In this document: positions 199 to 16,016 of the stretch, piece by piece
Position numbering within the stretch: the first letter of the stretch is position 1
Layout of the letters: the number at the start of each line of letters is the position of its first letter
NCBI GenBank assembly: GCA_964559675.1
Contig: CAZLHJ010000001.1
Coordinates: 1-54,284 of the forward strand
Origin: Candidatus Woesearchaeota archaeon
GTDB taxonomy: Archaea; Nanobdellota; Nanobdellia; Pacearchaeales; GW2011-AR1
DNA length: 54,284 nt
Direction of reading: 5' to 3'
Position numbers and translations under genes: made by a program
The notes under the pieces: model-generated
The model's database searches: none
Seen by the model: the letters and a program-made list of their open reading frames with translations, nothing else
Told to the model about the DNA's origin: nothing

Positions 199-768
199 AT
201 GAGAAATAATATTTACATAATTGAACATCTCGAGCCCGAGCTTTGGCCATGGTGTATAATTGAATATGAGAATATGGCTAAGCTAGTTGGGAAGAAAAGA
301 ATGTGGTTTACAAATATTCAAAAGAAAGATGTATCTAAATTAGAAAAATTCGGAAAAGTTTTCACAGAATCAGTAAAAACAATGGATTTACAAGATACTT
401 GTGTTCTTGATCCAGAATCAAAAATTCTTTTAACTCCAAAAGATTCCCAAGAATTCCAATACTTCATTTTTGGAGGTATTTTAGGAGATCATCCTCCAAA
501 GAAGAGAACTGAATTAGAATTAACAAAATTCATAAAAGATACTAAAACTCGAAACATAGGAAAAGAGCAATTTTCAACAGACTCTGCAGTCTATGTCACA
601 GACCAAATTCTCTCGGGAAAAAACTTCTCCGAACTTAAATTCCAAGATGTTGTAGATATAAAATTAAATGACGTTGAAACAGTCACTCTTCCATTCAGAT
701 ATCCTTTGATAAATGGTAAGCCGAATATCACCAAGAAGCTCATCAAATATCTCAAGACTGCTTATTAG
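199..768 (+). CDS. SPOUT-class SAM-dependent methyltransferase, Sfm1-like (RNA_Me_trans family)
   Basis: Motifs YIIEHLEPEL..W..IEY, VLDPES, FIFGGILGDHPP..RT, QFSTDSAV, V.LPFRY typical of the Sfm1/COG2428 family. Confidence 0.85.
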   Translation: MRNNIYIIEHLEPELWPWCIIEYENMAKLVGKKRMWFTNIQKKDVSKLEKFGKVFTESVKTMDLQDTCVLDPESKILLTPKDSQEFQYFIFGGILGDHPPKKRTELELTKFIKDTKTRNIGKEQFSTDSAVYVTDQILSGKNFSELKFQDVVDIKLNDVETVTLPFRYPLINGKPNITKKLIKYLKTAY

Positions 769-807
769 TAAATAAATCTTTAAATATATTAAAAATGTCT
801 TTTACTC

Positions 808-1284
808 ATGTCTTTTAAAAAAAGAATCCAGTCTCTAGTTACAGAATATATTCAAGGTTCAAGTATAGATAATTTGCTTTTATGGAAGAGGGAAGAAAAA
901 AAAGAATTACAAGCATTATATAACGCAGGATTAGTAGATGACGCAACAATTGAATCCGCGTTACATACTTCAGTTCTAAGGCAAGCACAAGATGATTTTA
1001 AGACAATGACTGCTCCAGATAGGCCTTATAAAATATATCCAGATCACGTTGGAAGGCCTGAATGTCTGGCTTATGCATTAAAACAAGGAGCATTCACTCA
1101 AGCACAAATATCAAGAATTCCTTTCGATCATGGACAGACGGCAGAAACGTTCCCTGAAATTTATGGTAGAGAAAGACTTATTTCAGAACTAAGGGAAAGA
1201 CTTTTAGATCCTGCTCATCCTCTTGAGGGTTTGGATATGGGTGACGTTGATTCAGATCCCCATCCAGTATGCGACTGCTGTTAA
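808..1284 (+). CDS. hypothetical protein
   Basis: 158-aa ORF with an upstream TTTAAATA box; ends in CDCC; no family recognised. Confidence 0.7.
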   Translation: MSFKKRIQSLVTEYIQGSSIDNLLLWKREEKKELQALYNAGLVDDATIESALHTSVLRQAQDDFKTMTAPDRPYKIYPDHVGRPECLAYALKQGAFTQAQISRIPFDHGQTAETFPEIYGRERLISELRERLLDPAHPLEGLDMGDVDSDPHPVCDCC

Positions 1285-1413
1285 AAGGTTAAAAGCAAAG
1301 ATTTAAATCCTCACATTTATTCAATTTTTCAATAAAGATAAGGATATGAGATAAAATATAAGATATAGATTTCTAATTAGTTAAAATGTTAATAAATATA
1401 ATGGAGGATTTTC

Positions 1414-1599
1414 ATGGAAGGAAGATTTAACGGTCCAAGAAGAGGCGGTTTCAAGCCAAATTTCAGACCCAGAGAGAACCAAGAGAAGCATAAAGCTATC
1501 TGTTCCGAATGCAAGCAAGAATGCGAAGTACCATTCAAGCCAGCAGAAGGCAGACCAGTTTATTGCAGAGACTGCTTTAAAGCAAGAGCTGCAGCTTAA
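1414..1599 (+). CDS. CxxC-x17-CxxC zinc-ribbon protein with Arg/Gly-rich N-terminus
   Basis: AICSECKQECEVPFKP.EGRPVYCRDCF signature; GGAGG Shine-Dalgarno motif just upstream. Confidence 0.9.
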   Translation: MEGRFNGPRRGGFKPNFRPRENQEKHKAICSECKQECEVPFKPAEGRPVYCRDCFKARAAA

Positions 1600-1684
1600 T
1601 TAGACACTAAGTCAAATTATTTTTATTTTTTATTCCTCTTTCTTATTTTTATCAGAAGTATCGTATAGGGAAGAAAAGGCAACC

Positions 1685-1691
1685 TTTAAAA
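1685..1691 (+). promoter_or_regulatory. archaeal TATA box for the initiator tRNA gene
   Basis: TTTAAAA about 25-30 nt upstream of the tRNA 5' end, preceded by a purine-rich BRE-like stretch. Confidence 0.6.
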
Positions 1692-1715
1692 CCCCTTTCT
1701 CATCTATATTTACAT

Positions 1716-1791
1716 AGCGGAGTAGAGCAGCCTGGAGTGCTCGCGAGGCCCATAACCTCGAGGTCGTGCGGTTCAAATCCCACCTCCGCTA
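1716..1791 (+). tRNA. tRNA-Met(CAU), initiator type; CCA not encoded
   Basis: Cloverleaf AGCGGAG/CTCCGCT-A; D stem GAGC/GCTC; anticodon CAT at 1751-1753; TTCAAAT T-loop. A1-U72 and A11-U24 are initiator hallmarks. Confidence 0.92.
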
Positions 1792-1842
1792 TTATCATTC
1801 CAGAACAATTATACTTTTAATATCTCGAATCTTCAAGAAGGC

Positions 1843-2733
1843 ATGAGGGATTCAAGAAGAGATTTTTTTCTATCAACCACACTAACTCTCTCATCTTTAT
1901 TATCTCAAGGATGTGTTTCTCAATTATCTCTCCGAGAATCGGAAACTCAAGTAATTCAAATTCAACAATCTCAGATACATCAACAAACCTATGAACAAGA
2001 TGAATTCTTATCTTCTTTTCCAAAAAAAATAAACGGAATAAGAGAGATAGAGTTCTTCCCATCTCCAAACCCAGACGCCTATATAATTTTCATAAGACAA
2101 TATCATCATATTCCTGGCATCTCAGAAGAAAAGCTAAGAAAAGTAGAATCGGTTCAAAAAGATATTTACTCAGCATTAAAAGACCTATCTTCAAAATACC
2201 CTATAAAATCTTTTTATCTTGAGGGAATCTCTATAAATGAGGAAAACACTGCAAATCAACTTTGCTCTCTTTGGAGAAGTGTTGACCAAATCACAAAAGA
2301 AAAATTGGACACAATACACTTACTAGATAATTCAAGACTTTGGCACTCAGACTCTTGTGAGATAACTAGAGATTACCTAATAAATAGAATAGAAAAACCA
2401 AGAAATGCTTTTCTCAAAAGAATGTTTATTTATCACGGAGCTCCATATGTAATATCTAAAGAGAACGGCGCACAATTAAATGCAGCAGAACAAGAGGAAT
2501 TGAACAAAAGAGCAGGCGAGGCAATTGACAATTTTTCAGAAGATGCAAAAAGACTAGTTCTAAAGGAAAGAGAAGATATGGCTTTAACTTACCTCACAGG
2601 AAACGATGAAAAAATAAAAGTTCTTCTCTTCGGAGCACTCCATGACTTCAGAACAAATGTATATGAATGGAACACGAAAGGAAATCGCCCAAGATATTCT
2701 CTTATAACTTTAACTCCTAATTCAGTGGAATAA
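1843..2733 (+). CDS. putative exported lipoprotein, TraB/Tiki/ChaN/EreA-superfamily-like fold
   Basis: N-terminal SRRDFF twin-arginine-like motif and SQGC lipobox-like Cys; motifs IRQYHH, FYLEG, EREDMA and LFGALHDF are spaced as in this superfamily. Confidence 0.5.
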   Translation: MRDSRRDFFLSTTLTLSSLLSQGCVSQLSLRESETQVIQIQQSQIHQQTYEQDEFLSSFPKKINGIREIEFFPSPNPDAYIIFIRQYHHIPGISEEKLRKVESVQKDIYSALKDLSSKYPIKSFYLEGISINEENTANQLCSLWRSVDQITKEKLDTIHLLDNSRLWHSDSCEITRDYLINRIEKPRNAFLKRMFIYHGAPYVISKENGAQLNAAEQEELNKRAGEAIDNFSEDAKRLVLKEREDMALTYLTGNDEKIKVLLFGALHDFRTNVYEWNTKGNRPRYSLITLTPNSVE

Positions 2734-2771
2734 ACAATTAAATTTTTATATAGATTAAATTTCCTAGAACC

Positions 2772-3449
2772 ATGTTAATTCTAGGTATTGACGATGCGGG
2801 GAGAGGTCCAATAATAGGTCCAATGGTTTTAGCAGGAGTTCTAATCAGCTATGAATCCGAAGCAGAACTAAAAGCCCTAGGGGTGAAAGATTCAAAAGCA
2901 GTCCTTCAAAATTCAAGGGTAAAAATTGCAAAATCAATAAAATCAATCGCTCTTGACAGCAAAGTAGTTCTCTCCACACCAGAAGAAATAGATTCTTCTA
3001 TTTTATCAGGAACAAATCTCAACACATTAGAAGCAATAAAAACTGCAGAGATAATAAACTATATAACAAAAAATCACAAATCAAGAATAAAAGTAGTGGT
3101 GGATTGCCCTTCTGTGAATATTAAAGCATGGACTGCAACCCTCCTCAAATATGTAAAAGAACCAGATAATTTAGAAGTTACTTGTGAACATAAGGCAGAT
3201 GTAAATCATGTAGCAGTTTCAGCTGCATCAATTTTAGCTAAAACCACAAGAGAAGAACAAGTAGATAAAATAAAAGAAAAATATGGAAACATGGGAAGTG
3301 GTTACCCTGCAGATCCTTTCACAAAAGAATTTTTAATAAAGCGTGGAAAAGAATTAGAAAACTCAGGAATTTTCAGAAAATCCTGGCAAACCTGGAAAAC
3401 TCTCTTCGGAGATCCAAGTGAAAAGGATAAGCAAGCTAAGTTGTTTTAA
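2772..3449 (+). CDS. rnhB: ribonuclease HII
   Basis: GIDDAGRGPIIGPMV, GVKDSK, VVVDC, HKADV..VAVSAASILAK, GSGYPADP. Confidence 0.97.
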   Translation: MLILGIDDAGRGPIIGPMVLAGVLISYESEAELKALGVKDSKAVLQNSRVKIAKSIKSIALDSKVVLSTPEEIDSSILSGTNLNTLEAIKTAEIINYITKNHKSRIKVVVDCPSVNIKAWTATLLKYVKEPDNLEVTCEHKADVNHVAVSAASILAKTTREEQVDKIKEKYGNMGSGYPADPFTKEFLIKRGKELENSGIFRKSWQTWKTLFGDPSEKDKQAKLF

Positions 3450-3484
3450 CAATAAATTTATCAATAAAAAACTCATTTAAGATT

Positions 3485-4009
3485 ATGGAAGAAATAGAAT
3501 CCTTGATCAAAAAAGTAAATTTGTTTAAGCAACCCTTTACTGAAATTTCAAAAAAAGATCTATCAGACTTAACAAAAAGAAATATTTCAGTAGAAGATTT
3601 TTTAGATTACATTTCTAAAAAATTTGATGTTTTACTTCACGGCTCACGAAATTTAATCCAAGATAAAATCAAAGCAATCAATAATGGAATTTTTGCCACT
3701 AATTTAGCAAGTATAGCTATAATGGAATCATTAATCTCAAATATTAAATGTAATTTGAGATATCCCTATATTATCTCAAAGAAAAACCCTCTAGTAATTG
3801 AAATAGAAAATATTAATTCTAAAACCATTGGGAAAAAAGGATTTATTTACATCATCAGTTCAGATAATTTTGAAAATTATCCAGATAAATCCTGGCAATT
3901 TCTAAACAAAGAAAATAAAGAAGTTAAAATTTTAGCGAGAGTTGAAATTTCATTCAAGGATTTTAAATATCAGATTATTGACAAGACAAATAATAAAAGA
4001 ATTCAATAA
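3485..4009 (+). CDS. hypothetical protein, possible ADP-ribosyltransferase-like fold
   Basis: LLHGS ... GIFAT ... GFIYII motif order resembles H-G-[ST] ART-fold enzymes; weak. Confidence 0.4.
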   Translation: MEEIESLIKKVNLFKQPFTEISKKDLSDLTKRNISVEDFLDYISKKFDVLLHGSRNLIQDKIKAINNGIFATNLASIAIMESLISNIKCNLRYPYIISKKNPLVIEIENINSKTIGKKGFIYIISSDNFENYPDKSWQFLNKENKEVKILARVEISFKDFKYQIIDKTNNKRIQ

Positions 4010-4081
4010 TAGGTTATAATAGGTTATAACTAAAAAGGAGCATACGGAAAGTTTTAAATATCGGATTTAGTGTAAAAATTA

Positions 4082-4705
4082 ATGACTTCCTTAGAAAGAC
4101 TGGGAATAAAATGCGAATATCGCACAGAAGGAATGAGAGAACTGAATTACACAATTCCATTAAATCCTGAAAAATTTAATAGTCCTAAGGAGGAGAGAGA
4201 TTATTTTCAGAAGATGATCCGAGGGATCTCAAGGGATGTTTCTAAGAAAAAAGGTCTCGAGAATTTAACTCTTACATTCGACTCATCCCATAGAGATGGA
4301 CTAATCTCAACAACACAAGAATTAATAGATGAAGCAGAAAAACAAAAATTAATTAGAAAAGGAGAGGGAGACTTTCCCATTCTACCAAGAATCTTAATTA
4401 TTGGAGGAGCAACTGCAGGTACAGTAGCAGGTCTTGTTTACGGTTATGATCAAATGTCTGAGTGGGGCACAAATGCAGCAAATTCTATGAATAATTATTC
4501 GCATCTATTAGCTCCAATAGCAGGAAGTTTACAAGCAGGCATCTCTATTTTTGGAAGTGCAGCAACGACTCTCGTCGGATGTTTAGCGGGACTTTTTGGT
4601 GGAGTAATCGCATCAAGACCATATGTATTTGCAAAAACTCCTCTCGCTAGCGAGGTTGAAAATTTCAAGAGGATTAAAGAGGAATTATCTTCAAGTAAAA
4701 TTTAA
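4082..4705 (+). CDS. hypothetical membrane protein with glycine-zipper-like helices
   Basis: Hydrophobic Gly/Ala-rich segments (GGATAGTVAGLVYG; GCLAGLFGGVIA). Confidence 0.65.
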   Translation: MTSLERLGIKCEYRTEGMRELNYTIPLNPEKFNSPKEERDYFQKMIRGISRDVSKKKGLENLTLTFDSSHRDGLISTTQELIDEAEKQKLIRKGEGDFPILPRILIIGGATAGTVAGLVYGYDQMSEWGTNAANSMNNYSHLLAPIAGSLQAGISIFGSAATTLVGCLAGLFGGVIASRPYVFAKTPLASEVENFKRIKEELSSSKI

Positions 4706-12234: not shown

Positions 12235-12477
12235 ATGCCAAAAACTCCCTCGATAAAGAACAATAAAAGCAGTAAAAAAATTACAACAATAAAGCTCTCT
12301 GAATCCACAAAACTAAGATTAGAGAAGCTTAGAGTTTATGAAAGGGAGACATATGATGAAATTCTTAGAAGAATGTTAGATCTTTTAACTCTAACAAGAA
12401 TAGATCCTGATAAAGCAGAATCAACTTTAATTTCAATAGAAAGAAAAAGAAAACAAAATCTAAGAAAAAAGGATTAA
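12235..12477 (+). CDS. ribbon-helix-helix (CopG/VapB-like) DNA-binding protein
   Basis: TTIKLSESTKLRLEKLR...ETYDEILRRML strand-helix-helix pattern. Confidence 0.8.
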   Translation: MPKTPSIKNNKSSKKITTIKLSESTKLRLEKLRVYERETYDEILRRMLDLLTLTRIDPDKAESTLISIERKRKQNLRKKD

Positions 12478-12737
12478 TCCTCCAAGCCAATAACCTGAAA
12501 ACCAAATTTCTCAATATCTTCCTGCTTCCAATATTTCATCTCTTTTGTTTTAGCAACAAGCTTAACTTTTTTTCTGAGCTCTCTTCCAGTATAATCTTTC
12601 TTCTCTGGATCCCACTCTCTTAATAATAACTCATCTCCCTCTCGAACTTCAAAATCATCCAGTCGAACTTCGAAGTCTTTCTTCCCTTCCAATATTTTAT
12701 CAAAAGAATCTTTCCAAGTTTTCTTCTCAATTATCAT
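12474..12737 (-). CDS. ASCH/PUA-like (DUF3850-type) protein
   Basis: KTW..SFDKILEGKKDFEVRLDD..VREGDELLLREWD...YTGRE. Confidence 0.85.
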   Translation of the reverse strand: MIIEKKTWKDSFDKILEGKKDFEVRLDDFEVREGDELLLREWDPEKKDYTGRELRKKVKLVAKTKEMKYWKQEDIEKFGFQVIGLED

Positions 12738-13519
12738 TTTAATTTTTTATAAATCTCTAGTCCTTCAACACAATCTTCGACCATTGTAGGAGCCTCATTT
12801 ACAATTCTTATTTTCTTATCTTTAGGCAAATTCTTTAATAGCTCTTTCCATGCCCCAGTCGGAGTTTTAATATGATGTTTCTCTCCTTTATCTCCATATA
12901 CAATTCCAGAGAAATGGCAATGCCATTCTTTCTGAGGGAATGCTTTCTTTATTCTCTCATAATCGACCTCTTTATCTCTAGCAAGTATATGTGCAAAATC
13001 TATACAAAATGAACATCCTGTATCTTTTACTAAATTAGAAATATCTTCAACTGAACCAAAAACATTTACTTTTCCCATCGTCTCAGGAGCAATTTTAATC
13101 TTCCACTTATTTTTTTCAATAACTTTCATTATATCAAGAATATTATTCTTAATTGTCTCATAAGCCGTATCTTTAGTCTTACCATAAAATCCAGGATGAA
13201 ATACAACAACTTTAGCTCCAAGCCACTCTCCAACTTGGCAACATTCAAGAATTCTCTTTTTAGACGCCTCTTGTTTTTCTTTCTCACTAGAATTTAAATT
13301 AATCCAATATTGTCCATGTATACTTAATTCAATTCCGAGTTCTTTAGCTTTCTCTCCAATTCTCCTCGCATCCTCTTCCCTTTTTATATATGCGGAATAA
13401 GTGAACGCTAATTCGCACGCCTTTAAACCCGCTTTAGCTAATCCTTCAAGAACATCTTCAGCAGTTTTCACAGGTCCAAGTCCCGCAGGTCCAAACCTTA
13501 CTTCTCCTTTCTCTGTCAT
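12734..13519 (-). CDS. nfo: endonuclease IV (AP endonuclease family 2, TIM barrel)
   Basis: SIHGQYWINLNS, VVFHPGFY, APETMGK..FGS, CIDFAH, HCHFSG, KHH Zn-ligand motifs. Confidence 0.9.
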   Translation of the reverse strand: MTEKGEVRFGPAGLGPVKTAEDVLEGLAKAGLKACELAFTYSAYIKREEDARRIGEKAKELGIELSIHGQYWINLNSSEKEKQEASKKRILECCQVGEWLGAKVVVFHPGFYGKTKDTAYETIKNNILDIMKVIEKNKWKIKIAPETMGKVNVFGSVEDISNLVKDTGCSFCIDFAHILARDKEVDYERIKKAFPQKEWHCHFSGIVYGDKGEKHHIKTPTGAWKELLKNLPKDKKIRIVNEAPTMVEDCVEGLEIYKKLK

Positions 13520-13563: not shown

Positions 13564-13923
13564 CTATTTTCTCTGTTCTTGCACAGTATTGTAAAAATCT
13601 AATGTTAAGTCTAATACTCTTTTCTCGCTATAATGCTCTTCACCTTTTCTAGGCATATCAATTCCTAATTCTTCTTCTGCTCTCATTACAATATCAAGAT
13701 AATCTATGGATTGTGCTCCTAAATCTTTTTCTAAAGTAGCATAAGGTTTAATTTCATCAAATCTTACACCAAGAGATTGTTCTAAAATTCCAACAGTTGC
13801 ACGAGAAACTCTTCTTACTAACTCCCCATTAATTCCTCTTCCTGCTGAGGAAAGGTTCTTTCTAACTTCTTCTTCTAATTTATCTGCTTCAACACAATCC
13901 ATTTGATAACTTCCATTACTCAT
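13564..13923 (-). CDS. acyl carrier protein-like protein (paralog 1) with N-terminal extension
   Basis: L.KDLGAQSIDYLDIVMRAEEELGIDMP matches the ACP DLGxDSLD motif (Ser retained, D->Q). Confidence 0.75.
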   Translation of the reverse strand: MSNGSYQMDCVEADKLEEEVRKNLSSAGRGINGELVRRVSRATVGILEQSLGVRFDEIKPYATLEKDLGAQSIDYLDIVMRAEEELGIDMPRKGEEHYSEKRVLDLTLDFYNTVQEQRK

Positions 13924-13947
13924 TTAACCCTCAAAAATAAAGAGTAT

Positions 13948-14307
13948 TTAAGAATTTCTATTTCTTCCTTGCTCTTGAACTAAATTATAAACTTTCAATG
14001 CAACTCCAAAAACATCAGTCTTATCATCATAAAGAGATTTTCTCTCAATTTTAATTCCAAGGCTTTGCTCTAAACGGAATTCAAGATCTAGTCTGTCTAA
14101 TGAATCTCCCCCCAAGTCCCCTACAATTTTCTTATTATGAATTATCTTTGCACGATCTATTTTAAGAACGTCTTCTAATGCAGATATTGTCTCACTTGAT
14201 ACTCTTCCTATTAAATCGAAATTAGGATTCTTTCCCCTAAGGTGATATTCAAGATGATCTGCTAATTCTTGAGTGATTTCTTGATAAGTTTCCACAGTAC
14301 TCATCAA
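13948..14307 (-). CDS. acyl carrier protein-like protein (paralog 2) with N-terminal extension
   Basis: IVGDLGGDSLDRLDLEFRLEQSLGIKI is a canonical phosphopantetheine attachment motif. Confidence 0.8.
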   Translation of the reverse strand: MMSTVETYQEITQELADHLEYHLRGKNPNFDLIGRVSSETISALEDVLKIDRAKIIHNKKIVGDLGGDSLDRLDLEFRLEQSLGIKIERKSLYDDKTDVFGVALKVYNLVQEQGRNRNS

Positions 14308-14335: not shown

Positions 14336-14815
14336 CTATAAAGCTTCCTTTAGCTTCTCATCAACTTTTCCAAGGTTTTGTAAGATATGGGTATGTAATC
14401 TCTCGATGATAATTCCTTGAAATTCTTCTTTTAATCTTCCATGACACTTAGATAAGTCTGATTCAGGATAAGTCGCAAATCCGTCAGGGTAAGTACAAGC
14501 CATACCATATCCTTCTAATTGATTAAGTTTTAATTCTCCTTCTTTAGCTTGGATTAATTTAGCTTCGACTTCACACCCTTCTGAATTCTTTCCTAAGATT
14601 TCATATCTCCAGATTGCTTGTTCTCCAGAATTAACATAGGTCGCTTTAGAACATGATCTCATATTCTCAGTAAAACACGTATAATTTTCACATTTTACTT
14701 TTTGATTAAAATAGAGATATCCTCCCACCGCAAGAATTATGACAAGTAAAACGATTAATAATTGAATCTTCCTATCCCCAAAGAATCTTCTCAGTTTACT
14801 CTCGCCTCTTTTCAT
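14336..14815 (-). CDS. membrane-anchored, Cys-rich hypothetical protein
   Basis: Single N-terminal TM helix followed by a domain with 6 Cys. Confidence 0.7.
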   Translation of the reverse strand: MKRGESKLRRFFGDRKIQLLIVLLVIILAVGGYLYFNQKVKCENYTCFTENMRSCSKATYVNSGEQAIWRYEILGKNSEGCEVEAKLIQAKEGELKLNQLEGYGMACTYPDGFATYPESDLSKCHGRLKEEFQGIIIERLHTHILQNLGKVDEKLKEAL

Positions 14816-14894
14816 GATTTTAATTACAAAAAAGAATATTTAAATCTTGGGAAGGAGTACAAATCTTTTTATAACTCTTAAATTTCAAAGGCAC

Positions 14895-16016
14895 ATGATA
14901 GAAAGAATGCCTTTATTAGATGTTACATCCGAAATATTCAAAGATGTTCAACTTAATAATGTGCTTTTAATTGCCTCCCAACATATCTTAGAAACTATCA
15001 GAGTCATGTTTGGGTCATTTATTTCTAAAGGATTGAAACCAGAGAATATCTTTCTAATTGGAAAATGTTACTCAACTAATGATGAAGTAATGAAAAGATT
15101 TCAAAATATGGGGATTAATGTTTCTCCAAAAAGCGACTCCTTTGACAGCTATACTTCGTTTGATGAACAATTCGAGGTTTATACAACAGAATTTCTAGAG
15201 GAAATAAAAAATAAAGTCAATACTAAAAAATTTGATAAAGTAATTATTTTAGAAGATGGGGGAAATTTATTACCTAAGGCAGAACTTATTTTTGAAGATA
15301 GGAGTAATTTTATCGGAATAGAGCAGACATCTGCAGGATACGAGAGATTAAAAAATATCAAATTGGATTTTCCAGTTATTAATGTCGCTCGTTCGTATAC
15401 GAAACTAGAAATAGAATCCCCAATAATTGCAGAGAGTGTTCTTCAAAGAATAGAATTATTTCTAAAGAATAAAAAGAACAAACCAAAAAAAGTTTTAATT
15501 ATTGGTGGAGGGGCAATCGGAAGATCCCTTCAAGAGAGGATAAAAGATATCTTTGAGGTTAAGGTCTTTGACACAATTAGAGAATTATCTGATTTTAATG
15601 GAGAAGTTAATTCAATTTTGAAAGACTTCGATATGATTATAGGATGTACTGGGAAAAACATATTAGACATAGATACGTATTCTTACTTAAAGAAAGATTG
15701 CATTTTAATAAGCGCTTCTTCTTCAGATAGGGAATTTTCAGCAGTAACTCTTAGGAAGATGTGTAAAAAGATAGCTCATTGTCATGAAGATTTAGAGATT
15801 AACGGATTAACTCTGACTAATTGCGGTTTCCCCATAAATTTTGATGGCGGAGAGATAAGCGCAGGGCCTCAAGATATTCAGATTACATTAGCTCTTTTAT
15901 TTTCCTCTATTTGTCTAGCTGTTTCTAAGAAATATGAAAACGGCCTAGTGGAGTTAGATAAGAGCACCCAAGAAAGATTAATTAAGGAATTTGAGAGTTT
16001 AAGAAGCAAAGTTTAA
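14895..16016 (+). CDS. divergent S-adenosylhomocysteine hydrolase-like NAD-dependent protein
   Basis: QH, EDGG, EQTSAG, FPVINVARSYTK, GGGAIG Rossmann motif, GCTG and GFPINF occur in AdoHcyase order. ATG at 14895 preferred over the TTG at 14847. Confidence 0.65.
   Translation: MIERMPLLDVTSEIFKDVQLNNVLLIASQHILETIRVMFGSFISKGLKPENIFLIGKCYSTNDEVMKRFQNMGINVSPKSDSFDSYTSFDEQFEVYTTEFLEEIKNKVNTKKFDKVIILEDGGNLLPKAELIFEDRSNFIGIEQTSAGYERLKNIKLDFPVINVARSYTKLEIESPIIAESVLQRIELFLKNKKNKPKKVLIIGGGAIGRSLQERIKDIFEVKVFDTIRELSDFNGEVNSILKDFDMIIGCTGKNILDIDTYSYLKKDCILISASSSDREFSAVTLRKMCKKIAHCHEDLEINGLTLTNCGFPINFDGGEISAGPQDIQITLALLFSSICLAVSKKYENGLVELDKSTQERLIKEFESLRSKV

What the first reader, a model, noticed from the sequence alone, without database searches (positions are those of the whole stretch)
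13564..14307. Tandem pair of acyl carrier protein-like genes in an archaeon
Seen in sequence: two adjacent 119-aa paralogs (RVS.AT/ET...LE..L; ends FYNTVQEQ and VYNLVQEQ) each carry a DLGx[D/Q]S[L/I]D motif and an extra N-terminal segment of about 35 aa. One has the canonical DSL, the other QSI. Established: ACP-dependent fatty acid synthesis is generally absent from archaea, which make isoprenoid ether lipids, and DPANN genomes usually lack lipid synthesis. Inference: the pair could scavenge or shuttle host acyl groups, act as a decoy for host PPTases, or be a non-acylated scaffold. No PPTase, ketosynthase or ligase gene is in the window.
Basis: partly seen in the sequence, partly recalled or inferred. 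Interest (0 to 1): 0.75.

Follow-up and report, generated by a model that had tools for sequence, protein, structure and literature searches.

The report
Orphan acyl carrier protein pair, DPANN archaeon
Two neighbouring genes in a tiny archaeal genome encode real but unusual acyl carrier proteins from a rare archaeal branch of that family, yet the genome has none of the enzymes that normally activate, load or use such carriers.

Summary
Two 119-aa minus-strand ORFs (13564-13923 and 13948-14307) are 38% identical. Both match acyl carrier proteins by sequence (PDB ACPs at E 2e-7 and 1e-5; family profile at 6e-17). Both are predicted with pLDDT 85-87 to fold as the ACP four-helix bundle plus one extra N-terminal helix.

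They have no close relative among 1.84 billion representative proteins. Their nearest relatives are about a dozen very divergent proteins from DPANN-type archaeal contigs. These share the N-terminal extension, the motif DLGAESID[YF]LDIxFRxE and a C-terminal NVLG..Y..E helix. One of those contigs also carries a tandem pair.

The sister group is a large Planctomycetota ACP family of about 130 aa that sits among FabZ-like, ketosynthase and FabG genes. The attachment serine is invariant in a 35-sequence alignment.

The clade is rare: 8 of 401 genomes of the phylum. The window's genome lacks a PPTase, CoaB, ketosynthase, FabD, FabZ-like, AMP-binding and PlsC genes, as do two other genomes that carry a stand-alone family member (one has a single AMP-binding gene).

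My best reading is an orphan carrier that is still phosphopantetheinylated. An apo-protein adaptor role is a serious rival. This is a new variant of a known kind, of moderate interest.

The parts
13564..13923 (-). ACP-A, 119 aa. ACP-fold protein with an extra N-terminal helix. Motif DLGAQSIDYLDIVMRAEEE. Predicted helices 11-27, 33-51, 72-86, 95-98 and 103-118.
13948..14307 (-). ACP-B, 119 aa from TTG 14307, or more likely 118 aa from ATG 14304. A paralogue of ACP-A. Motif DLGGDSLDRLDLEFRLEQ. Predicted helices 4-22, 30-48, 69-83 and 99-118.
13708..13710 (-). Codon of Ser72 of ACP-A (TCC), the predicted 4'-phosphopantetheine attachment serine. Invariant in the family alignment.
14101..14103 (-). 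Codon of Ser69 of ACP-B (TCA), the predicted attachment serine.
13828..13923 (-). N-terminal extension of ACP-A (residues 1-32; helix 11-27). Absent from ordinary ACPs, shared by the DPANN clade.
14221..14307 (-). N-terminal extension of ACP-B (residues 1-29; helix 4-22).
13928..13932 (-). Shine-Dalgarno-like GAGGG, 4 nt upstream of the ACP-A ATG, in the 24-nt spacer between the two genes.
   Evidence: read directly
14336..14815 (-). Upstream co-oriented gene, 28 nt from ACP-B. A 159-aa protein with an N-terminal hydrophobic segment (read from the sequence), several cysteines and no family match. Possibly co-transcribed; a functional link is not shown.
12734..13519 (-). Downstream co-oriented gene, 44 nt from ACP-A. 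An AP_endonuc_2 / xylose-isomerase-like TIM barrel. It overlaps a DUF3850/ASCH gene (12474-12737) by 4 nt. Context only.

Best explanation
ACP-A and ACP-B are tandem paralogues that probably duplicated within this lineage. They belong to a rare, fast-evolving, DPANN-archaeal clade of type-II-FAS-like acyl carrier proteins. The clade is related to a bacterial 'long' ACP family that is abundant in Planctomycetota, where the gene sits among FabZ-like, ketosynthase and FabG genes. The archaeal clade gained an extra N-terminal helix, and the two window copies have lost the roughly 45-aa insertion before helix IV. Shown: they have the ACP four-helix fold, the serine is invariant, and the acidic recognition helix II is kept (S-I/L-D-x-L-D...EE). 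Inferred: the proteins are still modified with 4'-phosphopantetheine on Ser72 and Ser69 and carry a thioester-bound acyl group. This is most plausibly a host-derived fatty acyl chain for salvage or remodelling, because the cell cannot make fatty acids. They are orphans. The genome encodes no recognisable PPTase, CoA-synthesis step CoaB, ketosynthase, FabD, FabZ-like enzyme, acyl-AMP ligase or PlsC acyltransferase. Activation and loading would therefore need an unrecognised enzyme, or cofactor and enzymes supplied by the host. The extra N-terminal helix would be the docking element for such a non-canonical partner, or for pairing of the two paralogues.
For: ACP identity:
- Sequence matches to solved ACPs; the family profile hits ACPs at E 6e-17.
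- AF2 models have pLDDT 85.4 and 86.8. Foldseek top hits are all ACPs, with target-normalised TM 0.73-0.83 and probability 1.00.

Clade:
- The exhaustive search found no close homologue. The best hits share the N-terminal extension and the C-terminal motif.
- Those that could be placed lie on archaeal contigs.
- A second tandem pair occurs in L106.

Retained carrier features:
- Ser, D(+2), L(+4) and D(+5) are invariant in 35 sequences, despite terminal branches of 1.6-3.5 substitutions per site.
- Helix II of ACP-A (SIDYLDIVMRAEEELGIDMP) closely parallels E. coli AcpP ([20 protein letters not shown]).

Bacterial sister family is a true FAS-context ACP.

The genes look functional:
- Both ORFs are intact and base composition is native.
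- An SD-like motif lies upstream of ACP-A.

A relative in the same family has an AcpS plus AMP-binding/PP-binding/PlsC salvage operon. Carrier-dependent acyl salvage therefore exists in this lineage.
Against: Every known partner is missing from the window's genome: PPTase, AMP-binding, ketosynthase, FabZ-like, FabD, PlsC and CoaB. Most are also missing from G301 (95% complete, 4 contigs), which carries a stand-alone family member without the extension, and from G456, the Pacearchaeota genome that carries clade member P0019. G456 does have one AMP-binding gene. No neighbour gene is conserved across about ten archaeal loci. ACP-A has Gln instead of the acidic residue before the serine. ACP-A is just below the Pfam cut-off. 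The proteins are less acidic (pI 4.8 and 5.4) than classic ACPs.
Confidence: 0.4

Rival explanations
1. PPant-independent adaptor. The ACP fold has been co-opted as a small acidic protein-binding module, possibly an A/B heterodimer. The extra N-terminal helix makes the contacts and no prosthetic group is needed. The serine is kept for structural reasons, as the N-cap of helix II.
For: No PPTase and no CoaB in three genomes that carry a stand-alone family member. No ACP-dependent enzyme is found. Genomic contexts are variable and often sit among information-processing genes: between rpl13 and rps9 in L082, after rps27e in L106, before rpoB in L102, after TrmB in L010 and L108. The clade-specific N-terminal helix is confidently modelled. 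Tandem duplication has occurred in two lineages. From general knowledge: ACP serves as a structural subunit in mitochondrial complex I, NFS1-ISD11, mitoribosome assembly factors and E. coli MukB. Such complexes appear among the fold hits.
Against: The serine and the two acidic helix-II residues are strictly invariant across very long branches. That is more than an N-cap role needs. The known structural ACP roles still use the acyl-PPant arm. No LYR-type partner was found. No conserved neighbour points to a binding partner.
Confidence: 0.3
2. An ordinary ACP system whose partner genes are simply missing from the assembly. The PPTase and the acyl-loading or acyl-using enzymes lie in the unassembled roughly 15% of the genome, or are too divergent for the profiles used.
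For: The assembly is 85% complete in 60 contigs. Relatives in the same family and class do carry AcpS-type PPTases next to carrier domains.
Against: G301 (95% complete, 4 contigs) and G456 also lack a PPTase. A profile built from DPANN AcpS sequences and run without filters found nothing in the own genome. Seven different partner families would all have to fall in the gaps. The PPTase-bearing relatives carry conventional ACPs or fusion proteins, not the N-extended clade.
Confidence: 0.12
3. Functionless remnants of an old bacterial-to-archaeal transfer, drifting towards loss.
For: Distribution is very patchy: 8 of 401 genomes of the phylum, and no homologue of the pair itself among 60 close relatives, only three weak carrier-domain hits. 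Branches are extremely long. Partners are absent.
Against: Both copies are intact, fold confidently and keep all motif residues. The duplicate is retained and base composition is native. The clade-specific N- and C-terminal helices are conserved between distant DPANN members.
Confidence: 0.1
4. A decoy that soaks up host phosphopantetheinyl transferase or CoA.
For: Only that the recognition helix is ACP-like and that no own PPTase exists.
Against: There is no signal peptide or export context. The protein would have to enter the host. Nothing in the data points to this.
Confidence: 0.03

Closest known systems
Planctomycetota-type 'long' acyl carrier proteins (about 125-135 aa; GAESIDFLDIVFRLEKAFGIKIPR; annotated only as 'acyl carrier protein')
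   Same: Best-scoring large family. It shares the motif G-A-E-S-I-D-[FY]-L-D-I-x-F-R-x-E and the helix I and II layout. The longer archaeal clade members also share its insertion before helix IV, for example 'G.V(S/T)DEG...LR..(F/M)P'.
   Different: The bacterial genes sit beside FabA/FabZ-like dehydratases, a FabF-like ketosynthase and FabG. They evolve slowly (branches 0.1-0.3) and have no N-terminal extension. The window's proteins have the extension, lack the insertion and have no FAS neighbours or FAS genes anywhere in the genome.
Bacterial type II FAS AcpP (E. coli, Aquifex, Thermotoga, Helicobacter; PDB 1L0H, 2EHS, 6LVT, 4ZJB)
   Same: Four-helix bundle, serine at the N-terminus of helix II, and an acidic recognition helix. 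Sequence E 1e-5 to 2e-7; fold TM 0.73-0.83 over the ACP core.
   Different: About 30 extra N-terminal residues form a fifth helix. The pre-serine residue is Gln in ACP-A. Scores are far below the equivalog cut-offs (34.8 and 26.2 bits against 70.45 for TIGR00517). There is no AcpS and there are no Fab or Pls enzymes.
Mitochondrial ACP (NDUFAB1/ACPM) as a structural subunit with LYR-motif partners
   Same: It has an N-terminally extended ACP and roles beyond fatty-acid synthesis. These chains appear among the sequence and fold hits.
   Different: The mitochondrial extension is largely a targeting peptide, and the structural roles still use acyl-PPant. No LYR protein was detected here.
DPANN Aas-like fusion (AMP-binding + PP-binding + PlsC acyltransferase) with adjacent AcpS, found here in a genome of the same family
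   Same: A carrier domain in the same archaeal family, plausibly for salvage of exogenous fatty acids.
   Different: There the carrier is embedded in a 784-aa enzyme with its own PPTase next door. The window's genome has none of these parts, and its carriers are free-standing and belong to a different clade.

Membership tests
Carrier-protein (PP-binding, PF00550) superfamily | Four-helix-bundle ACP fold | tested here: met
   AF2 pLDDT 85.4 and 86.8. All top Foldseek PDB hits are ACPs, with TM normalised to the target of 0.73-0.83.
Carrier-protein (PP-binding, PF00550) superfamily | Conserved serine at the start of helix II in a (D/E)-S-(L/I)-D motif | tested here: met
   Ser72 and Ser69. The serine is invariant in 35 aligned homologues and aligns with the PPant serine of solved ACPs. 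ACP-A has Q instead of D/E at position -1.
Carrier-protein (PP-binding, PF00550) superfamily | Score above Pfam's gathering threshold (20.8 bits) | tested here: inconclusive
   ACP-B scores 23.3 bits (met). ACP-A scores 20.0 bits (just below). ACP-A nevertheless hits PDB ACPs at 1.9e-7.
Carrier-protein (PP-binding, PF00550) superfamily | Post-translational 4'-phosphopantetheinylation by a PPTase | not testable with these tools
   No PF01648 match in the own genome at E<=1, and none with a DPANN-AcpS profile. This needs mass spectrometry.
Housekeeping type II FAS AcpP (TIGR00517 / NF002148-51) | Equivalog-level score | tested here: not met
   34.8 and 26.2 bits against the 70.45 cut-off. All ACP equivalog models are below threshold.
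Housekeeping type II FAS AcpP (TIGR00517 / NF002148-51) | Presence of FabD, FabH/F, FabZ and PlsX/Y/C in the genome | tested here: not met
   PF00698, PF00109 and PF01553 are absent. Profiles of FabZ-like and KAS neighbours found nothing. PlsX and PlsY were not searched. Only generic SDRs are present.
Planctomycetota-type long ACP | Motif GAESID[FY]LDIVFRLE | tested here: met
   ACP-A reads GAQSIDYLDIVMRAEE and ACP-B reads GGDSLDRLDLEFRLEQ. Both are partial matches, and both align throughout.
Planctomycetota-type long ACP | Insertion of about 45 aa between helix II/III and helix IV, and FabZ/KAS/FabG neighbours | tested here: not met
   The insertion is absent in both window proteins. The neighbours are a membrane protein and an AP-endonuclease-like gene.
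DPANN N-extended ACP-like clade (defined here) | N-terminal helix of about 30 aa, plus ...VSR.T... helix I, plus the GA(E)SID motif, plus a C-terminal (N)VLG...Y....E helix, on archaeal contigs | tested here: met
   Alignments A2 and A4. The contigs of the members carry archaeal genes such as Rpb1/2, Rpb7, Spt4, S24e, S27e, S17e and TrmB.
Mitochondrial-type structural ACP | LYR-motif partner protein | tested here: not met
   PF05347 gives only sub-threshold matches, 18.4 bits inside a 595-aa frame.

The most novel reading that the evidence does not exclude
A DPANN-specific clade of ACP-fold proteins works without any endogenous phosphopantetheinyl transferase, CoA synthesis or ACP-dependent enzyme. 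One possibility is a prosthetic-group-free adaptor that uses a new fifth helix, possibly as an A/B heterodimer tied to information-processing machinery. The other is a carrier whose activation and loading depend on host-supplied cofactor and enzymes. That second case would be a molecular handle on how ultra-small archaea acquire host lipids.
Probability: 0.3. Interest if true: 0.7.

Novelty: new variant of a known kind. Interest (0 to 1): 0.5.

Why it matters
ACP and its processing machinery are regarded as bacterial inventions that are missing from most archaea (PMC3533463). How DPANN archaea, which cannot make lipids, obtain and handle host lipids is an open question.

A conserved, free-standing carrier-protein clade in DPANN genomes that lack every known ACP partner gives two directly testable outcomes. 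The first is a non-canonical route of carrier activation and acyl handling in episymbiotic archaea. The second is a case of the ACP fold re-used without its prosthetic group.

The practical test is simple: express both proteins, treat them with Sfp or AcpS, and measure the mass. If they turn out to be ordinary holo-ACPs whose partners are merely unassembled, the finding reduces to one more bacterial-type gene acquired by DPANN.

Tried and rejected
- The word-indexed homologue search with ACP-B found only the protein itself. With the family alignment it was swamped by Planctomycetota ACPs.
A 6-sequence alignment worked.
- The tree of the clade is unresolved, with long branches and a star-like shape. 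It cannot say whether the tandem duplications in the window and in L106 are shared. Pairwise scores and the shared insertion state suggest independent duplications.
- A third PP-binding 'hit' in the genome (C1:62973-63050) lies inside a polytopic membrane protein and is spurious.
- Two strong FabG-like hits are generic SDRs with unrelated neighbours.
- PADLOC gave nothing. PHROGs gave only 'acyl carrier protein'.
- The viral contig scan gave four core-only matches without the extension.
- An LYR-partner search was negative.
- There is no compositional sign of a foreign island.
- No neighbour is conserved across about ten archaeal loci. TrmB occurs twice and DUF3850 twice, which is too few to build on.
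- The literature searches found reports of FabG/FabI/FabZ in DPANN MAGs (PMC10936187) but nothing on this clade.

Full report
**Observation**

The window holds two adjacent 119-aa ORFs on the minus strand, 24 nt apart: ACP-A at 13564-13923 and ACP-B at 13948-14307. They are 38% identical over 106 residues, E 7e-15.
- DLGAQSIDYLD in ACP-A and DLGGDSLDRLD in ACP-B.
- RRVSRAT in ACP-A and GRVSSET in ACP-B.
- C-termini FYNTVQEQ in ACP-A and VYNLVQEQ in ACP-B.

ACP-B most likely starts at the ATG one codon inside the TTG, because the database copy is 118 aa. ACP-A has a GAGGG Shine-Dalgarno-like motif 4 nt upstream of its ATG.

The pair lies in a run of five co-oriented, tightly spaced genes:
- a 159-aa protein with an N-terminal hydrophobic segment, several cysteines and no family match;
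- ACP-B;
- ACP-A;
- an AP_endonuc_2-type TIM barrel;
- a DUF3850/ASCH protein.

Base composition is the same as the rest of the genome, about 0.32-0.33 GC.

**Are they ACPs?**

Yes, at the level of fold and superfamily.
- Pfam PP-binding scores 23.3 bits for ACP-B and 20.0 bits for ACP-A, against a cut-off of 20.8.
- NCBIfam ACP models hit at E 6e-10 and 1e-7, but far below the equivalog cut-offs.
- Solved ACPs (Aquifex, E. coli, Thermotoga, Helicobacter, mitochondrial) match at E 1.9e-7 and 1.2e-5, with the serine aligned to the PPant serine.
- A profile of the family hits PDB ACPs at E 6e-17.
- AlphaFold2 models built on 33-35-sequence alignments have mean pLDDT 85.4 and 86.8 and pTM about 0.8. 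They show the ACP helices plus one extra N-terminal helix: residues 11-27 in ACP-A and 4-22 in ACP-B.
- Every top Foldseek hit in the PDB is an ACP, with probability 1.00 and target-normalised TM 0.73-0.83.

**Which ACPs?**

An exhaustive HMMER search of 1.84 billion representative proteins found no close relative. After the two proteins themselves, the best score drops from 210-220 bits to 77 bits.

The best hits define a small clade with these shared features:
- an N-terminal extension;
- a ...VSRxT... helix I;
- the motif DLGAESID[YF]LDIxFRxE;
- a C-terminal (N)VLG...Y....E helix.

Every member whose contig could be read lies among archaeal genes:
- Pacearchaeota RIFCSPLOWO2_01_FULL_32_14 (L010): after a TrmB regulator.
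- GCA_053534795.1 (L102): between thioredoxin and rpoB.
- L104/L105: after a class II aminoacyl-tRNA synthetase.
- L108: overlapping a TrmB gene.
- L106: after rpoE'-spt4-rps24e-rps27e.

L106 carries a second tandem pair of such genes.

Two shorter-N-terminus relatives also occur in DPANN genomes. One is in G301, a genome of the same family, between DNA ligase and RadB. The other is in a Woesearchaeota MAG, between rpl13 and rps9.

The large sister group is a Planctomycetota family of about 125-135 aa, annotated only as 'acyl carrier protein'. In 76 loci of this family (nearly all Planctomycetota), the gene is flanked by FabA/FabZ-like dehydratases, a FabF-like ketosynthase and FabG. The longer archaeal members share that family's insertion before helix IV. 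The two window proteins have lost it.

In a maximum-likelihood tree the bacterial sequences form a tight clade with short branches. The archaeal ones sit on branches of 1.6-3.5 substitutions per site and are unresolved. Within each genome the two paralogues are each other's best match and share the same insertion state. The duplications therefore look lineage-specific.

**Distribution**

The clade is rare. Only 8 of 401 sampled genomes of the phylum give a hit at E<=1e-4. None of 60 close relatives carries a homologue of the pair; three of them give only weak matches to conventional carrier domains.

**Partners**

The window's 790-kb assembly (85% complete, 60 contigs) has no match to any of the following.

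| Partner | Family or method |
|---|---|
| PPTase | PF01648; unfiltered profile of DPANN AcpS proteins |
| Acyl-adenylating enzyme | PF00501 (AMP-binding) |
| Ketosynthase | PF00109; profile of Planctomycetota KAS neighbours |
| FabZ-like dehydratase | profile of Planctomycetota neighbours |
| FabD | PF00698 |
| PlsC acyltransferase | PF01553 |
| CoaB | PF04127 (found in 14 of 14 control genomes) |

G301 (95% complete, 4 contigs) and the Pacearchaeota genome G456 lack the same families. The exception is one AMP-binding gene in G456.

Other DPANN genomes do have AcpS, but next to conventional ACPs or next to fusion proteins of about 800 aa. In G012, of the same family, the operon is alpha/beta-hydrolase, then AMP-binding + PP-binding + PlsC acyltransferase, then AcpS. 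So carrier-dependent acyl salvage exists in the lineage, but not in this genome.

No neighbour gene is conserved across the roughly ten archaeal loci.

**Interpretation**

Shown:
- The fold, the family placement and the invariant serine.
- A retained acidic helix II. D at +2 and +5 from the serine are invariant, and ACP-A reads SIDYLDIVMRAEEELGIDMP against E. coli [20 protein letters not shown].
- The orphan status.

Inferred: because the serine and the residues that ACP partners recognise have stayed invariant across extreme divergence, the proteins are most likely still phosphopantetheinylated carriers. My recollection of the B. subtilis AcpS-ACP structure is that D35, D38 and E41 contact the PPTase. 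I did not test this here. Activation and loading would need unrecognised or host-supplied factors. I give this reading 0.4.

The main rival, at 0.3, is a PPant-independent adaptor that uses the new N-terminal helix. The complete absence of PPTase and CoA synthesis favours it. So do the repeated locations among ribosomal and transcription genes, although such genes are so common in these tiny genomes that this is weak evidence. No LYR-type partner was found.

The remaining rivals are missing partner genes in assembly gaps (0.12), decaying remnants (0.1) and the decoy idea (0.03).

**Literature and novelty**

ACP and its processing enzymes are reported as absent from most archaea and acquired by HGT where present (PMC3533463). 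FabG, FabI and FabZ genes have been noted in DPANN MAGs (PMC10936187). I found no description of this N-extended clade.

I class the finding as a new variant of a known kind, of moderate interest. It is a real, previously undescribed sub-family of a very well-known fold, in an unexpected and partner-less setting, and a simple biochemical test can decide its nature.

**Limits**

- The organism's name is withheld.

Noticed in passing
L101 (G012:C29) 697-4299, minus strand: A genome of the same GTDB family carries an apparent acyl-salvage operon. It reads alpha/beta-hydrolase (286 aa), then a 784-aa fusion of AMP-binding + PP-binding + PlsC acyltransferase, then a 106-aa AcpS-type PPTase. Similar frames of about 820 aa with a PP-binding domain occur in G164 and G304, with AcpS adjacent in G304.
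   Followed up: partly
L082 3131-3571 (Woesearchaeota MAG CAYHPN010000049.1): A 146-aa ACP gene (PP-binding E 1.6e-10) is inserted between rpl13 and rps9, with overlapping or abutting stop and start codons. It is therefore apparently co-transcribed with ribosomal protein genes. That genome also has AcpS, PlsC and CoaB.
   Followed up: partly
L106 1723-2863: A second tandem pair of N-extended ACP-like genes (183 aa and 172 aa, 34% identical) lies in another archaeal contig, directly after rpoE'(Rpb7)-spt4-rps24e-rps27e.
   Followed up: partly
L010 1678-3170 and L108 288-1426: A TrmB-family regulator lies immediately upstream of the ACP-like gene in two unrelated archaeal contigs. In L108 it overlaps the ACP-like gene by one base.
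   Followed up: no
window 14847-16016 (+): A 389-aa Rossmann-type protein is transcribed divergently from the ACP gene run. It has only sub-threshold matches to adenosylhomocysteinase (36 bits against a cut-off of 275) and HcgC (20.8 against 31.4). Its identity is unclear.
   Followed up: no
window 14336-14815 (-): A 159-aa protein lies directly upstream of ACP-B. It has an N-terminal hydrophobic segment and several cysteines, and no match in Pfam, NCBIfam, PADLOC or PHROGs.
   Followed up: no
L115 1099-3015: In one metagenomic contig, the ACP-like gene (P0033) is followed by a radical-SAM + BATS-domain protein (BioB/ThiH/HydE-like).
   Followed up: no
genome contigs C19:3405-4274 and C23:2009-2749 (outside the window): Two SDR proteins score 1e-48 and 1e-46 against a profile of Planctomycetota FabG neighbours. 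Their neighbours (MsrA, a GTPase, a hydrolase) suggest generic SDRs, not a FAS.
   Followed up: partly
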